Shown: positions 15,001 to 21,000 of the stretch, piece by piece | Layout of the letters: each line of letters begins with the position of its first letter | Position numbering within the stretch: the stretch's first letter is position 1 | Position numbers: made by a program | Source: Pseudomonadota bacterium | Lineage (GTDB): Bacteria > Bdellovibrionota > FAC87 > UBA2466 | Direction: 5' to 3' | Length of the DNA: 28,118 nt | NCBI GenBank assembly: GCA_043767805.1 | Contig: JAYUGC010000115.1 | Span: 1-28,118, forward strand

Positions 15001-18000
15001 AGTGTCCGACTATGTTTCCATCGGCCGAGACGGCTACAGAAATGATCGGCTCGCCATAAGGAAGCTGCCGGTACTTCCAATCCCAGTAGTCCGCCTCCAC
15101 CGTGGCTTTGAAGGCGCGGTTAAAGAGAGCCAGGGATTGCGCGTCATCTTCGGGGCGTGCCGGCCGGATTATCGGCTGCGTTATGTTGGATTGAGTCTGG
15201 GATTGCATGGTTTTAGAATATGGCCCGGAAGTCTTTATAATACCCTTTATCCATGCGCATACCCATCGCGACGCCCTACCTGCCCTGGCCGCTCCGCTCG
15301 GGCGGAAACGCAGCTCTTTTTTCCACTCTGAAATGCCTTGCCTCCGATCATCAATTCAACGCTCGTTTGCCCCGTGACCGTAAAGCAGAGATGGACTCAC
15401 CTCCGTCGGCTTCAGGCAACGCTGCCCGAGGTTAAAGTGCGAGGCGTGTCCTGTCCAAAACCAATCAGGCATCGCCTTCGCGGGCTTCGTCGCTCCGCCC
15501 CCCGGCGCTCCCACGCCCTATCAGCCGTTTTCCGGCGTGCCGAAAGCCTTTCTCAAAGCTCTCAAGGAGGAAAGTGACGAGAGAACAATTTACTCCAGCA
15601 GCGGCGCGCCGATCGTGGGCCACTCTTCCTTTGGGACATGACGTTGCATTCTTTTATTGTCCGAGTAGTTTTCAAAGAGGATGCGCCAGACGATGGAGCC
15701 ATCGCGGCGGACGTAGCGTTTTACAATTTGGTAGCCCATAAGTCTCCTATCGGATTTAGGAGGACTTAAATAGCTGGGGAGGGATTCGAACCCCCGACCA
15801 AAGGATTATGATTCCCTTGCTCTACCGACTGAGCTACCCAGCCAAAGTGAAATCCGGATTTTTTTAGCCCATCCCCACCCCGTTGTCCAACCTTATGGAA
15901 GCGCTACCTTTATTTGGGGGGAGGGCGGGTCCGCGCGCCTAAGGAATAGGCTCGAAACGGCCGATAAGTCTCCGTGCGTTTTAGATTCCTTTTAGTCTTG
16001 CTGCTCCTAGTCACTTTTTCGCCCTCCAGCTCGAACGCTACCCTTGAAGAAGACCTCTGCAAGTACCGCTATGGCGCCATCAGCGGCTGGAAAAGCGAAA
16101 AGGGACAGCTCGAGAGGGCTCTCGCGAAGCTTCCCGATTCGGAGCGCCAGGGCTACCAGGATGCCCTGGACGCTCTCTATTTCGTGAACTACCAGCATCT
16201 GGGCCCAGAGCTTTTGGAGAGCTACCTAAAGGGTACCCCTCTGTGGAAGGCGACTTTCCCCCGCGCGGAAGACGGCGGCGTTTGGAAGATTCTCGGATAC
16301 CGTTTCAAAGTGGGCGAAGGGCATTCCGCTTTGACCAACTATCGCTTCGCCAAGGAACAGCTCAAAAAATTGAGGGGTCGCCCGACGGCGAAAGATTTCG
16401 CGAGGCTTCATTCCCAGCTCTTTCACCTCGACCCCCGCGTGAAAGCCGGAGAGTACTTGGAAGCGAGAGCCAGCGCCGAAGTGGATGCCTTACTCGCCAA
16501 CTTTTACGAGCGCGCCGCGAGCTTTAAGAACTTGGAAGACCCGCAGCAGGTCGATGATTTCATCACGCGCGCCGCCCGCCTGCACCAGGAACTGGTTATC
16601 GCCCGTCCATTCGGAGAAGGCAGTGAAAGAGCCGCGACCGTGCTTCTCAATCACATTCTGGAAAGCGCCGGCCTTCCGCCCGCGCGCCTTCTCGATCCGC
16701 GCCGAGCTGAGACTTTGAGTAAGAATGACTGGGCGGAGGAAGTGCGTCTCGGCATTCAGTCCACGCGCTTTTTGCGCGACGACATCGTGAATCGGCTCGC
16801 CCACGGGCAGCCGGTTGCCGCGTCTCCCGAGCTTTTGTCGCCTCTCGTTCCCCGCGTGCAAGCGGTGCCTCACAAGAGCGATCGCAAGTCCGATATCGAT
16901 ACGGTAAACCGCGCGCTGCCCATCAGCGGCGGGCAATACGCCGCCTACCTGTCGCAGCGGTTTGCCCAAGATCCGTCACTGCGCGCGAACTTGAAAAATC
17001 GGCCGCAGAAGACCGCGGCTAAGCTCTACGAGGATTTTCTCGAGTGGACCGACCACACCCGCCACGACCTCTTCCACAATAAGCAGGGCGAAGAAGAGCT
17101 TCAGTTCGATTTCGTCGAACCGGACTTCTTCAAAGAGTTCGGCGTTACGACCTTCGAGGATCCCAAGGCCTGGCGCGAGAAAATGAGTCGATGGAATCAC
17201 CCGGACCTCATGTGGCGCGGTTTGAGCCATCAGGACAAGGAATTGCCGGACAGCGAGATTCTCTCGATGTTTACGCAGGTCCATCCCCACATGGTCTCCA
17301 ATAAGCTCCTTCAGCTGAGAAGCAACGATCCGGAAGTCTTGCGCCAGGCCGCGCTGAAAGACTTCGCCAAGTACAACGAAGAGCTCTTTAACGGAAAGCT
17401 CCTGCAAATGGCCCGGGACCATACCGAGACAGGCCCCATGTACGGCGATAGTTACGGCATCTCGACTTCGAGCCGGCGGGTCGTCGGTGAGGGATTCGCC
17501 ATGGGCGCCATGGTCATCGCGGAGTACGGCAAGCACCGCACTCCCGAAATGCAGGCCAAATTAAAAGATCGCATCTTGGTCGGCGCTTACCGAGGCAAGA
17601 AGGACGTGGAGATCTCGCGCCTGCGTCACGCCGGGCCGGCGTTTGAGAAGTTCAGTTACATGTACCCTCGCCAAAAAGAAGTCATGGCGATTGGTGCGGC
17701 CGACCCTGATTCCGTGATGCTGGTTCAGCGCGTGGGGGCTAAAGGGGAAGTCGTTCAGTCGTGGGTGCGTAATCCCGAACGGCCGGGCGAAGTCTGGATC
17801 ATTAAAGGCGAGTACCAGCCCGAGAATAGGTTCCCGCCGCCGGACGACGTCGTCATTCGCAAGGTCGATCTAGGGCGCTAGGCTCGAAAGCTTTTTCCAC
17901 GTTCCGTCCTTCAACCGTTGGTACCGGCTCAACGCCAAGAGATGAGTGCCGTTGTACTCCCGGATCTCAACGCGGTTATGCGCGAGCCGGTCGGCTACTC

Positions 18001-21000
18001 GACGGTGGAAGCTTCCCAGGTCCTTCGCGTCGACTTGCAGTACGGCCTCCGGGTCGATTCCTCCCGCGTGCAGCACGAGGCGATCCTCCGGGCTGCGGTT
18101 CGCGGCCTTTATGGTCTCCGAAGTCTTTCCGTTGTCGACGGTGGCGACTTCGCGGCGACGGGCGGTAATTTCCACCATTGTTTTGGCGCCGTGCGTGCGC
18201 TCCACGGGAGGTATGCCTTCAAAGAACGTCGGCACGACACCCGCGATCTGTGCGGTGGCCGAGCCGCCGAACCAGCCGTTAGGCCAGCGCTCAACCAGCT
18301 TCGGCGCGCGCACGAGGACCGAGTTGAAATTGGCGAACGCCTCCGTGTTGGGAAGCGGCTTATGCGGCAACGTCACTTTTTGCGGCTCGACGAAGTGCTC
18401 GAGAATGTCTTCATCCGTGAGCTTTTCGGAAATCTCCAGGGCCCGCTTCACCTTTCCGCGGGGGGAGTAGAAGCGTTCCATCTTCGCGTTGAAGGCCGCC
18501 TGATTGTCCGAGAGGCGACCGAAGGATCCGGCGAAAAGCGCCGACGCGAGCCGGTTACCGCGGCCGTTGCCTCGCTCGTAGGTCTGCGAGTCGCGCCATT
18601 TCTTAAAGTCCAGGATCGCGTCCTCTACTCTTTTGTGCTCGCGCGTCCCGGCCGCGACCCAGGCCAGGAACTCGTCGGCGTCGACTCTGTTTTCGTCGGC
18701 GACCTTTGGATCGAGCTGACCGGCGAAGAAGCCCACGGAAACGCCGGTATGAGGAATGCCCGCCGAAGTCAGCCGGTCGAGATCCTGATGGAACTCGCGA
18801 GATACGTCGACCGCGTCATGAAAGAGCTTCTTGAAGTCCGCGCGGGAGAGAAGGACGTCCTCTCCCAAATGCGTCCAAAGCGGTGGCGGGAGATTGTAAT
18901 GACCGAGGAGTTTCTCGGCGAGCATCCTTCCCATGCGGCCGTTGCCGTTGCGATAGGGGTGAATGGAGACGAAGTCGTAATAGAAGTCCGAGACGATATC
19001 GATGGCCTCGTTTTTCGACTTCGCGTTTTTGAGTGATGTCTTGGCCTCTTCCCAGCGAGAAGCGTAGACCTCTTCGACGAAAGCGTTGCGGAGCTTTGCG
19101 TGTGTCTCGCCGTCGAGCATGAGCGTGCTACTGAAGAGAGCCTCTTTGCCGGAGGTGAATCGCTCGTCGGCTTGTTTACTGAGCGCGAGACCCTCGGCTT
19201 CGATTAACTCGTCCCGCTTGGCGTCCGTGATCCACCCGCGCTCGTGCCGCTTGAGGATCTTGTCCCAGTTGTTCAGAAACTCGTTCTGAGCTTCCTTGCG
19301 AATCGTGGCAAGAAGCTTTGCCTCCTCGGCCTCCAAATCGTGGGGTAGCAGCGCCCGGCTCTCCTTTTCCGCGGCTTCCAGTTTCGCAACGAGGCCGGGC
19401 GAGAGCCGCTGAGCGTGATCCCGCCACCGCGACAAGGGCAGGTAGTAAACGAATTCCCTGCGTGTCTCATTGCCCGTGACATAAAGGAGAAAGGGATTCA
19501 CCTCGTGAATTGCCTTAATGTCGCTCGGTGACTCGGTGATGGGCTCGCCCGTAGTGGACCGGCGCAAAACCTCCAAATCCCGGGTCGTGGTGCTTCCAGG
19601 GGAAAAGCCCACTTGAATGGTGCGCACCTTTCCGAGGGCTTCGTTTGGCGTCATCTCGGAATTGTTGGTGAACATCCAGGAGAGAAGGCCTTTGGCCGCA
19701 GGCAAGGTTCTCCACGAAAGGAGCACTCGGTGAGCCTCGTTCAAGTCCTTCAGATCCATCTTGGACAGCGGCTTGGCGTCGAGTACCCCGTGAGCGGAAA
19801 GGTATCCGGTGAAAGGCTGCTGTCCCTCTCTGTCGTAGCGGTCCCCGCGGTGCAGGTAATTGTCCGGGGAGTTCATATTGTCTTGGAGAGTCGCCCAGCG
19901 ATCCGAGAAAAAGTGGTCGTAGTACCACTCGTAAAAACGATCGTACTCCTTGGGAGAAAGCTTGGCTTTTTGCCGGTCGAGGAGACGCTGGCCTAGGAGA
20001 AAGCGCCCCGACGGGTGCAGAGGGCCGGCCCAGTCTCCGGCCGGAATACGGCGGTTGATCGAGGCGTACTTATCCCAGCACTTAAAGAGATCTTCGTCGA
20101 CGGCAAAGCTGCTGACGGCGAGTACGAGCCCCAGGATCGCAAGGCGCGCGAGGGCAGCTGTGCCTCGTATTCTCAATTTTCTAAGACAGGGGGGTACCAA
20201 TTATCACCAACCAACAACGTGAGCTTCAATAGAGAACGGGCAATAAGTTGCAAACCGGGTACCAGGGTTGGGGGCACTGGCTCTCAAGGGGAATACGGCG
20301 CAAATTTGGCAGGCCGTCGCTCATCTCGACAGGAACGGGAAATCTCTGTTAAGAATCCTTTCCATGAAACTCGATTTCCGTATTCTCAGTTTGGGACTTC
20401 TTCTCTCCTTCGCGGCTCACGGCGCGCACTACGGGGACGCCGAAAAGCGCTTTCAGTTCGACTACGACGATACGAAGTGGGAGATCGTGGCGGCTTCCAA
20501 AGCGGCGCCCACCCAGGACATCGATAAAAACATGGAGGGTCAAACCCTCGTCACCTTGCAACGCAAGGAAGCGGACGAGAAGTACCGGGCGCGTTTCAGC
20601 GTGGTGGTAGACGATCCTTCGAAATTAACGGGCAGCGCGAAAACGGAGCTCGCGGGTTACGCGAAACACGCGGTGGAGTTCATGAAGGATCAGCGCTTCC
20701 ACGTTCTGTCGACGGACGCGAAAATTCTGCCCCGTCTGGGCGCCCCCACTTACGAGATCGTGGCGAACCAGAGGGATTTCGGATTGAGCTTTCGCCAGGT
20801 CGTTTTTTTCTGGGATAAGACCGGAAAGAAAGAAGCGTTTTTACTCACCGCCGCCACTCGGACCAATAAGTACGAGACGTACAAGGCGGAGCTCGATCAG
20901 ATTTTCAACTCTTTCGCCATGAAGCTCTAGCCGCTTCGTAAGCGGCGAGCTGAGCGGCGAGATGCGTTTCGGAAGTGTACTCGGCGGCGATTCTTTTGCG

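What a model noticed while it worked through the whole genome (the two positions that open the first line are those of the whole stretch)
15974..20200. Lone-cysteine N-terminal tag (C-x-x-x-F/Y just after the signal peptide) on secreted versions of cytoplasmic enzymes
About 30 unrelated secreted proteins carry their only mature cysteine a few residues after the Sec cleavage site, often as C-x-x-(L)-F/Y and not as a lipobox. Many are enzymes that need cytoplasmic cofactors: three Fic proteins (two here, one at C146:4733), kinases, UDP-sugar pyrophosphorylase, FAD oxidoreductases, an acyltransferase. The tag is a candidate second export or prey-delivery signal of predatory Bdellovibrionota.
Evidence so far: Of 158 signal-peptide proteins with exactly one mature Cys, 35 have it in the first 20 residues against 9.5 expected (Poisson p 1.5e-10), 13 of the 35 with F/Y at +4; control without signal peptide 19 of 213 against 16 expected. 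Independent homologues keep it though the flanks differ: of 54 signal-bearing Fic homologues 42 have the Cys, 24 with F/Y/L at +4, 23 as sole Cys; 5 of 15 signal-bearing UDPGP homologues have it, each as sole Cys of about 600 aa. Paralogue controls: UDPGP g00169 and G3PDH g02075 have signal plus tag, their paralogues g03539 (58% identical) and g00902 (45%) lack the signal. No paper found.
(Added by a program. Inside this text positions count along the whole contig: contig position 1 is position 1 of the stretch shown here. "Call 12" and the like, gene names such as g00115 and contig names such as C1 are that model's own, and its searches are not shown. The text may have been shortened before it was handed on; [...] marks where a part breaks off. 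The agent that wrote the report below was given it as the finding of a first reader that could run no searches.)

Follow-up and report, generated by a model that had tools for sequence, protein, structure and literature searches.

The report
Free-cysteine helix tag on predator enzymes
Predatory Bdellovibrionota bacteria attach a short helix with one unpaired cysteine to either end of many exported enzymes that need substrates found inside cells, which points to an undescribed signal for delivering enzymes into prey; how it works is untested.

Summary
Confirmed and extended. With my own gene and signal calls, 27 of 123 exported single-cysteine proteins carry the Cys in the first 20 mature residues (7.0 expected); cytoplasmic controls are flat. 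The tag is an amphipathic helix, C-x3-hydrophobic-x2-hydrophobic, and it also occurs at the C-terminus (19 vs 4.5 expected). It changes ends between homologues and persists behind a true lipobox, so it is not a missed lipoprotein signal. In the 30 Fic loci examined, all 23 signal-peptide forms have the early Cys; so do 17 of 17 ordinary-length signal-bearing UDPGP homologues. Tagged cargo is rich in ATP-, UTP-, NAD-, SAM- and FAD-using enzymes (12 of 14 annotated vs 1 of 35).

Both window genes encode Fic plus ADP-ribosyltransferase-fold proteins, each keeping a different active-site motif. The B. bacteriovorus orthologue is most likely Bd2033, a predation gene peaking at prey entry.

Best mechanism (0.4): a disulfide tether to a shared carrier, released by reduction in prey. 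No carrier was found. My ten literature searches found no description. The scan noted a related lone-Cys motif in this genome before (e1-7661658), with mixed counts.

The parts
15974..17881 (+). Gene for a 635-aa exported Fic plus ADP-ribosyltransferase-fold protein; likely orthologue of B. bacteriovorus Bd2033
   Evidence: 40% identity over 423 aa to L256/L258
15974..16039 (+). Sec-type signal peptide, residues 1-22 (heuristic)
16058..16084 (+). Cys-helix tag: Cys29, Tyr at +4, Ile at +7; only Cys of the protein; lies in a predicted N-terminal helix of modest confidence
   Evidence: Cys column nearly invariant in alignment A4
16604..16639 (+). Fic motif position, degenerate (no catalytic His); Fic fold kept
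   Evidence: VIA-align Z 15.6, rmsd 3.2, 201 aligned to AnkX Fic
17198..17785 (+). ADP-ribosyltransferase-fold domain with R, STS and QxE motifs (residues 415, 497, 567-569)
   Evidence: Z 10.5, rmsd 2.6, 127 aligned to the Rhs toxin domain TreX; also Foldseek rows
17870..20176 (-). Gene for a 768-aa exported protein of the same family, convergent with the first and overlapping its end by 12 bases
20102..20176 (-). Sec-type signal peptide, residues 1-25 (heuristic)
20054..20080 (-). Cys-helix tag: Cys33, Tyr at +4, Ile at +7; only Cys of the protein; kept in a 51% identical homologue
18926..18961 (-). Fic motif with catalytic His (residue 406) kept
17873..18500 (-). C-terminal region aligning with the ADP-ribosyltransferase-fold domain of the family, but its motifs are not found (approximate limits)
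   Evidence: alignment A4; motif scan; not folded separately

Best explanation
The feature is a transferable terminal module: one unpaired Cys at the start of a short amphipathic helix (C-x3-hydrophobic-x2-hydrophobic), placed at the N- or C-terminus of Sec-exported enzymes (shown by counts and homologue comparisons). Most likely mechanism (inferred): after Sec export and folding in the predator's periplasm, the helix docks on a shared carrier or translocon protein and its Cys forms an intermolecular disulfide with it. The complex leaves the predator, probably by type II secretion, and reaches the prey cytoplasm or its membrane, where reduction frees the enzyme. This would work like the extra cysteine that ties an A subunit to its delivery platform in AB toxins, but as a general loading hook for dozens of unrelated cargos. 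The two window proteins are such cargos. Shown: motif, either-end position, co-occurrence with the signal, loss of other cysteines, cargo bias, domain content. Inferred: disulfide, partner, route, release.
For: Enrichment at both ends with flat cytoplasmic controls. Hydrophobic moment after early lone Cys 1.08 (n=29) vs 0.80 for internal lone Cys (n=72, p 0.003) and 0.76 after lipoprotein Cys (n=90). UDPGP family: 17 of 17 ordinary-length signal-bearing forms have the early Cys, 16 as sole Cys, while 48 signal-less forms have 0-9 internal Cys (p 2e-8); the signal-plus-Cys label changes 9 times on a quick tree. Fic loci: 23 of 23 signal forms, and 3 of 4 lipobox-like forms with a second Cys. 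End swaps among GHMP kinases, GH15 enzymes and flavin amine oxidases. Cofactor-dependent cargo 12 of 14 vs 1 of 35. Likely orthologue Bd2033 is in the entry-peak proteome cluster, the predatosome and a list of transposon-defined predatory genes. Type II secretion operon present, with a tagged Fic gene directly downstream.
Against: No carrier identified: no recurring neighbour family across different tagged genes; no conserved lone-Cys exported protein stood out in a partial survey; the lone Cys of the pseudopilin GspG is invariant in 30 of 30 genomes of this order but replaced by a Cys pair in Bdellovibrio-type and Halobacteriovorax-type GspG, whose genomes have tags. Exceptions exist: exported Fic proteins with paired cysteines, 3 exported glycolipid synthases and 4 amine oxidases with no terminal Cys, long Fic-ART forms with a Cys-rich N-terminal domain. 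Some tagged enzymes need no cytoplasmic cofactor (two GH15, a ceramidase, a GDPD, a peptidase). A blind paralogue test was null (3 of 34 vs 23 of 551, p 0.19). For C-terminal tags the +4 and +7 enrichment alone is not significant (p 0.12, 0.08). G005, of the same family, showed 0 tags in 31 exported proteins sampled. Bd2033 was not found in the empty-bdelloplast proteome tables.
Confidence: 0.4

Rival explanations
1. The Cys is lipidated (thioether or thioester) by a periplasm-facing enzyme, and the amphipathic helix lies on a membrane, anchoring cargo to the predator's outer membrane, to vesicles or to the prey inner membrane.
For: A Cys on the hydrophobic face of an amphipathic helix is typical of acylated membrane anchors (recalled). 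Many cargos act on lipids: glycolipid synthases, acyltransferase, G3PDH, GDPD, ceramidase, FeeM-like. 105 of 121 genomes of the phylum have two or more Lgt genes.
Against: Only 10 of 34 tagged proteins have G/A/S before the Cys, which Lgt needs (recalled). The second Lgt lies next to lnt-like or lspA-like genes (by eye), which suggests ordinary lipoprotein work. Some true lipoproteins carry the tag in addition. No Rce1-like sortase match in G158, which has tags.
Confidence: 0.2
2. The tag is a thiol tether that keeps enzymes at the predator's own envelope or feeding junction. They work on prey cytoplasm that leaks into the bdelloplast and never cross the prey inner membrane.
For: Whole exported pathways are tagged and co-encoded (GHMP kinase, UDPGP, glycolipid synthase; GDPD with G3PDH), which suits scavenging. 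Bd2033 was not found in emptied prey. Secreted nucleases were seen in the bdelloplast space (PMC7925074 passages).
Against: Protein-modifying enzymes (Fic, ADP-ribosyltransferase fold, kinases) imply protein targets in prey, and Bd2033 peaks at 30-60 min, when prey cytoplasm is described as still compartmentalised (PMC2797640 passage).
Confidence: 0.2
3. The helix is a self-association strap: tagged proteins form disulfide-linked homodimers or hetero-oligomers with each other, or the Cys is left over from a disulfide-stapled N-terminal helix.
For: Tagged genes cluster (8 of 34 within 5 kb of another, 2.6 expected, p 0.03). Related exported Fic proteins begin with a similar Cys-helix followed by a second Cys. 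An early Cys forms an ordinary intrachain disulfide in Bd0967 (bioRxiv 10.64898/2026.06.08.730854 passage).
Against: It does not explain the bias to cofactor-dependent cargo or the same motif on unrelated folds at either end. Neighbouring tagged genes occur as N-N, C-C and N-C pairs with no complementarity.
Confidence: 0.13
4. Artefact: missed lipoproteins, wrong signal calls and a motif fitted after the fact.
For: Signals come from a heuristic; at least 4 of my 34 rule-picked proteins look like false calls (g0671, g2819, g3183, g3527); the motif was read from the same genome it was first counted in.
Against: The effect holds at four thresholds and in blind samples of other genomes (8 tags in 140 exported proteins and 6 in 100, about 1.2 and 0.6 expected). 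21 of 27 have a charged residue between the h-region and the Cys. C-terminal tags cannot be lipoboxes.
Confidence: 0.04

Closest known systems
Disulfide-tethered A subunits of AB toxins (typhoid toxin CdtB-PltA link, cholera toxin A1-A2 link; recalled, not looked up here)
   Same: An enzyme that acts in the target cytoplasm is Sec-exported and carries an extra Cys for a reducible link to a delivery part. One window protein has a fold related to these A domains.
   Different: There one Cys serves one dedicated partner encoded alongside. Here one motif is shared by dozens of unrelated enzymes, at either end, with no partner gene found.
Bacterial lipoprotein signal (lipobox; Lgt, LspA, Lnt)
   Same: A Cys shortly after a signal peptide.
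   Different: The Cys follows a signal peptidase I site by 0-18 residues, often after charged residues; it is followed by an amphipathic helix rather than a polar tether; it occurs at C-termini and in addition to a lipobox.
MYXO-CTERM and related Cys-bearing C-terminal sorting signals (TIGR03901; features recalled)
   Same: A terminal Cys motif on unrelated exported proteins of predatory deltaproteobacterial lineages.
   Different: No Gly-Cys signature, no transmembrane helix or basic cluster, also N-terminal, and the cargo is cofactor-dependent enzymes rather than surface hydrolases.
Second-step targeting motifs behind a signal peptide (oomycete RXLR, Plasmodium PEXEL; recalled)
   Same: A short motif just behind the signal marks the subset of exported proteins that act inside the target cell.
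   Different: Those are eukaryotic, N-terminal only and cleavage-based. This one is bacterial, works at either end and centres on a thiol.
Bd2033 of Bdellovibrio bacteriovorus (Fido-domain protein, Q6MLH7)
   Same: Same family and architecture as the 15974 protein, with the tag (alignment rows L256-L258).
   Different: The B. bacteriovorus protein keeps both the Fic and the ADP-ribosyltransferase motifs. The passages I saw call it hypothetical or Fido-domain and mention neither the tag nor the second domain.

Membership tests
Bacterial lipoprotein (lipobox) | Cys directly after the hydrophobic core, no charged residue between | tested here: not met
   21 of 27 early lone-Cys proteins have D/E/K/R between h-region and Cys; both window proteins have acidic residues before the Cys
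Bacterial lipoprotein (lipobox) | [LVI][ASTVI][GAS] before the Cys | tested here: not met
   0 of 34 match and 10 of 34 have G/A/S at -1; strict lipoboxes were excluded by the picking rule, so this count is partly by construction. Independent: C-terminal tags and tags behind a lipobox
MYXO-CTERM | Gly-Cys motif, transmembrane helix and Arg cluster at the C-terminus | tested here: not met
   C-terminal tags listed lack these; proteins with a transmembrane helix were filtered out beforehand
MYXO-CTERM | Match to the NCBIfam model | tested here: inconclusive
   No such match among the 18 N-tagged proteins scanned; C-tagged proteins were scanned against Pfam only
MYXO-CTERM | Rce1-like sortase in the genome | tested here: inconclusive
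   Matches in 4 of 5 genomes, none in G158, which has tags
Fic/Fido AMP-transferases | Fic fold | tested here: met
   Pfam above cut-off for both proteins; model of the 15974 protein Z 15.6 to AnkX
Fic/Fido AMP-transferases | Catalytic HPFxxGNGR motif | tested here: met
   Met for the 17870 protein (His406); not met for the 15974 protein
R-S-E class ADP-ribosyltransferases | Fold and R, STS, QxE motifs | tested here: met
   15974 protein: motifs at 415, 497, 567-569, Z 10.5 to TreX. Motifs not found in the 17870 protein
R-S-E class ADP-ribosyltransferases | NAD-dependent transferase activity | not testable with these tools
   needs an assay
AB-type disulfide-tethered toxins | Extra unpaired Cys on the enzymatic chain | tested here: met
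AB-type disulfide-tethered toxins | Cognate delivery subunit with a matching Cys, usually encoded alongside | tested here: inconclusive
   none found among neighbours or in partial surveys
AB-type disulfide-tethered toxins | Interchain disulfide | not testable with these tools
   needs non-reducing gels or mass spectrometry
Type II secretion substrates | Sec signal and a type II system in the genome | tested here: met
   GspG match in 192 of 201 genomes searched
Type II secretion substrates | Secretion depends on the Gsp machine | not testable with these tools
   needs a mutant
CaaX prenylation signal | Cys fourth from the C-terminus | tested here: not met
   listed C-terminal tags have the Cys 5-25 residues from the end (shorter distances were not counted), and N-terminal tags cannot fit

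The most novel reading that the evidence does not exclude
Bdellovibrionota have a general effector-delivery system of a new kind: Sec-exported enzymes are hooked by a free-thiol helix at either end to a shared carrier that takes them into the prey cytoplasm, where reduction releases them. The tag would list the predator's cytoplasm-acting arsenal from sequence alone (about 50 candidates in this genome, including whole ATP- and UTP-dependent pathways and a Fic plus ADP-ribosyltransferase protein tied to predation) and would give a handle on how these predators act on prey across the inner membrane.
Probability: 0.35. Interest if true: 0.93.

Novelty: categorically new. Interest (0 to 1): 0.8.

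Why it matters
How Bdellovibrio gets enzymes to the prey cytoplasm is open: a 2025 paper calls its secretion largely unexplored (PMC12622784 passage), and prey die from secreted proteins without invasion (PMC11003981 abstract). A sequence tag on cofactor-dependent cargo makes this testable with one point mutation in a model organism, and its free thiol is a built-in bait for trapping the unknown partner. It also gives a predicted Fic plus ADP-ribosyltransferase architecture for the likely orthologue Bd2033, an uncharacterised predation gene. Even if the tag is an anchor rather than a delivery hook, I found no description of a free-Cys helix that works at either terminus.

Tried and rejected
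Complex prediction of two copies of the first 120 residues of the 15974 protein: no answer, score 0.00 against a mark of 0.42; not used as evidence either way. GspG as universal acceptor: lone Cys in 30 of 30 genomes of this order and in G032, but a Cys pair in G158, G435, G036 and G419; rejected as general. Genus g20 first looked GspG-negative but has it (5 of 5), so no phyletic test was possible. Lone Cys in GspD and GspN: GspD Cys not kept in the one distant homologue aligned; GspN untested for lack of homologues. Recurring neighbour as chaperone or immunity protein: none across families; no Fic inhibitory motif in the four Fic proteins. N-terminal Cys-rich domain of long Fic-ART forms as a free-standing carrier: no homologue in this genome or in the loci held; Atlas hits 0.90 or lower. 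Intragenome paralogue test: null. The first named-genome scan found nothing. Horizontal-transfer signal: none in G+C (57.6% vs 58.5%). N and C tags never fell on the same protein (34 and 19), but under one overlap is expected, so this is uninformative. A larger sample of G158, meant to test expression timing of many tagged proteins, was not obtained; only one orthologue could be linked to expression data, and two other tagged B. bacteriovorus proteins (Q6MP29, Q6MHE0) are absent from the proteome tables. No non-Bdellovibrionota whole-proteome control was run.

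
Full report
Observation in the window. Two convergent genes, 15974-17881 (+, 635 aa) and 17870-20176 (-, 768 aa), encode proteins with Sec-type signals and a single Cys 6-7 residues behind the predicted cleavage site, preceded by acidic residues and followed by Tyr at +4 and Ile at +7. Both match Pfam Fic. The genome belongs to Bdellovibrionota: genomes listed as its 'same phylum' recur in the phylum search centred on G041, whose record is titled Bdellovibrio.

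Genome-wide check. I called 4,207 genes with my own caller and applied a hydropathy heuristic for signals; SignalP was not available. Among signal proteins with one mature Cys, 16 of 103 have it in the first 10 residues (3.8 expected); cytoplasmic controls from residue 23 gave 17 of 278 (14.7 expected). One cytoplasmic control counted from residue 2 was slightly raised (16 of 219 vs 9.2, p 0.025). With alternative starts and lipobox-like proteins removed, 27 of 123 lie in the first 20 residues (7.0 expected); at stricter thresholds 21 of 104, 16 of 80 and 12 of 43. Hydrophobic residues are enriched at +4 (10 of 17) and +7 (14 of 17, against 29% background), and the hydrophobic moment after the Cys exceeds that after internal or lipoprotein cysteines. 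The motif is therefore a short amphipathic helix with the Cys on its hydrophobic face. A rule built on it picks 34 proteins, at least four of them probably false. The motif was read from this genome, so the fair tests are in other genomes.

The tag also sits at the C-terminus. Three exported neighbours of the tagged UDPGP gene, two of them glycolipid-synthase-like, have their only mature Cys 10-19 residues from the end. Lone-Cys positions in 139 exported proteins are bimodal: 28 in the first 5%, 17 in the last 5%, 0-10 in the other bins. A lone Cys in the last 25 residues occurs in 60 of 764 exported proteins (20.6 expected), 19 with the motif (4.5 expected); cytoplasmic proteins gave 14 of 1,084 (12.0 expected). 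The positional preference of C-terminal tags taken alone is weak (+4: 15 of 26 vs 45 of 115, p 0.12; +7: p 0.08). In evenly spaced samples of other genomes the two forms together gave 8 in 140 exported proteins (G041, G047, G158; about 1.2 expected), 6 in 100 (G036, G042; about 0.6 expected) and 0 in 31 (G005); a few of these may be false calls.

Homologues. UDPGP family, 78 loci from named genomes: 8 had no complete frame, 8 were open at the 5' end, 43 had no signal, 19 had one. Seventeen of the 19 are of ordinary length; all 17 have the early Cys, 16 as their only mature Cys; the other two are giant proteins. Signal-bearing forms have lost internal cysteines (16 of 17 have none) while 48 signal-less forms have 0-9 (p 2e-8). 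On a quick tree of 66 rows without bootstrap the signal-plus-Cys label needs 9 changes, 6 forced by well-supported branches; one change comes from a truncated row. Among 150 representatives, 36 were called signal-bearing; the 24 without an early Cys are mostly long proteins with other N-terminal motifs. Fic family, the 30 best loci of a search of 250 genomes with a Fic-domain-only alignment: 23 have a signal and all 23 the early Cys (14 as sole Cys, 17 hydrophobic at +4); 4 look like lipoproteins and 3 of these carry a second Cys-helix further on; 1 was missed by the heuristic; 2 are truncated. Several rows are close kin. End swaps: a GHMP kinase has the tag at the N-terminus in L078 and at the C-terminus in L083 and L312, while 11 signal-less homologues show no such tag; GH15 enzymes of this genome have one of each; flavin amine oxidases have N tags, C tags, a C-terminal Cys pair that looks like an ordinary disulfide, or nothing. 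Of 14 signal-bearing glycolipid-synthase rows with a complete end, 10 have a C-terminal Cys, 1 only an early Cys and 3 none; 4 more rows were open. Exceptions matter: another exported Fic family has paired cysteines (5 rows), and four long Fic-ART proteins have a Cys-rich N-terminal domain instead.

Cargo. Of the 34 rule-picked proteins 30 were scanned with Pfam; 14 have a family, and 12 of these need ATP, UTP, SAM, acyl-CoA or FAD (four Fic, two kinases, UDPGP, methyltransferase, acyltransferase, acetyl-CoA hydrolase fusion, G3PDH, amine oxidase). Of 53 untagged signal proteins from the same regions 35 have a family, and one (an RmlD-like false signal call) needs such a cofactor; the rest are proteases, outer-membrane proteins and the like (Fisher p 1e-8, or 5e-7 with the Fic proteins counted once). 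The sorting into cofactor classes is mine, from established enzymology, and the regions were chosen around tagged genes. A blind test by cytoplasmic paralogues was null. C-tagged cargo includes glycolipid synthases, a nucleotidyltransferase, a GHMP kinase and an ATP-grasp enzyme, but also GH15, a ceramidase and a GDPD; most have no family.

The window proteins. They belong to one phylum-wide family: signal, Cys tag, helical region, Fic domain, ADP-ribosyltransferase-fold domain (alignment of 18). A model of the 15974 protein (pLDDT 85.7; the tag lies in helix 2-11 at pLDDT about 60-70) matches Fic domains (Z 15.6, rmsd 3.2, 201 aligned) and, over model residues 387-582, R-S-E class ADP-ribosyltransferase domains (Z 10.5, rmsd 2.6, 127 aligned). 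This protein keeps the transferase motifs and lacks the Fic histidine; its neighbour keeps the Fic motif and lacks the transferase motifs; Bdellovibrio-type orthologues keep both. The two genes come from different subfamilies (18% identity in the alignment), so this is complementarity rather than a recent duplication. The orthologue in L258 is an entry that sources name a Fido-domain protein of B. bacteriovorus strain ATCC 15356. The only Fic/Fido row in the HD100 proteome table is Bd2033, with 49 unique peptides, which fits the 770-aa protein better than the other, 228-aa Fic frame seen in such genomes; the link is inferred, not shown by accession. Bd2033 is one of 40 proteins in the entry-peak cluster of 2,195 quantified (PMC12546842 passages and supplements 3-5), is on the predatosome sheet with a modest 1.4-1.6-fold rise, p 0.057 (PMC2797640 supplement), is named there among transposon-defined predatory genes (passage; the original paper was not seen), and is among genes shared with Bacteriovorax marinus (PMC3526173 passage). 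It was not found in the empty-bdelloplast proteome, sampled at 300 min with low peptide counts (PMC11003981 passages and supplements).

Mechanism. Proteins that purge cysteines on export yet keep one at a free end, on a helix face, on unrelated folds and at either terminus, suggest one shared binding site and covalent chemistry. The bias to enzymes whose substrates are cytoplasmic fits a bond that breaks on arrival in a reducing compartment. I put 0.4 on a disulfide tether to a shared carrier, 0.2 on lipidation, 0.2 on tethering to the predator envelope with work on leaked cytoplasm, 0.13 on self-association or a relic, 0.04 on artefact. That the tag is real and functional I put near 0.9. The search for a partner failed: no recurring neighbour, nothing in a survey of 319 odd-Cys exported proteins against 3.0 Mb of related DNA, and the striking lone Cys of GspG is limited to part of the phylum. 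A second Lgt in 105 of 121 genomes is a lead for the lipid model, but duplicated lgt is known in related lineages (recalled) and the residues before the Cys do not suit Lgt.

Literature. Ten full-text searches combining Bdellovibrio or Bdellovibrionota with cysteine, motif, signal peptide, effector, Fic, ADP-ribosyltransferase, disulfide, secretion and Bd2033 returned no description of this tag. I saw listings for all hits and passages of PMC12419801, PMC12428579, PMC12622784, PMC7925074, PMC12546842, PMC11003981, PMC2797640, PMC3526173, bioRxiv 10.64898/2026.06.08.730854 and 10.1101/2023.11.21.568195; none was read whole. Subscription journals are mostly missing, preprint supplements are closed, and one scanned supplement of PMC12546842 could not be searched. 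AB-toxin tethers, MYXO-CTERM, RXLR and PEXEL are recalled.

Verdict. Its function as a delivery signal is plausible and cheaply testable but unproven. Interest 0.8.

Noticed in passing
G000:C11:22090-35022 (L280): A cluster of exported proteins: ceramidase-like, unknown, esterase, UDPGP (N tag), two MGDG-synthase-like glycosyltransferases (C-terminal lone Cys) and a GH1. Similar pairings of exported UDPGP with GHMP kinase or glycolipid synthase occur in L078, L083, L088, L089: an exported sugar-nucleotide pathway.
   Followed up: partly
G000:C146:13630-14136 (L353-L383): The major pseudopilin GspG has one invariant Cys in its head in 30 of 30 genomes of this order and in G032; Bdellovibrio-type and Halobacteriovorax-type GspG have a Cys pair elsewhere.
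   Followed up: partly
G000:C146:4733-21171: A tagged Fic gene lies directly downstream of, and on the same strand as, the complete type II secretion operon. Not checked in relatives.
   Followed up: no
G000:C60:3936-4730 and C76:7967-8773: Two Lgt genes; 105 of 121 genomes of the phylum searched have two or more. The second lies beside an lnt-like or lspA-like gene in two genomes.
   Followed up: partly
L244, L245, L259, L070, L175: In these proteins the Cys-helix follows a lipoprotein or membrane anchor and, in several, a short R-x-[IP]-A-S-like linker motif, which could be a processing site.
   Followed up: no
proteins P0214-P0217 and L255: Long (1,450-1,590 aa) Fic-ART proteins with an N-terminal domain of 15-16 cysteines and a hydrophobic stretch; no Pfam family; may be self-delivering forms.
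   Followed up: partly
proteins P0072, P0076, P0086, P0100, P0105, P0106 and others: The same UDPGP-like domain occurs in long exported proteins that share other N-terminal motifs behind the signal and lack the Cys; named loci with such long frames include Omnitrophota (L147, L149). Possibly a different lineage's tag on the same cargo.
   Followed up: no
window 20364-20930 (+): Exported 188-aa protein without Cys or Pfam family, divergent from the second Fic gene; no paralogue in the genome.
   Followed up: partly
window 200-9137: Sugar-modification genes (epimerase, aminotransferase, oxidoreductase, acetyltransferase, glycosyltransferase, methyltransferase) scoring low on the genome's codon model, suggesting an acquired surface-glycan locus.
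   Followed up: no
window 22243-25604 (+): Ordinary riboflavin operon ribD-ribE-ribBA-ribH.
   Followed up: no
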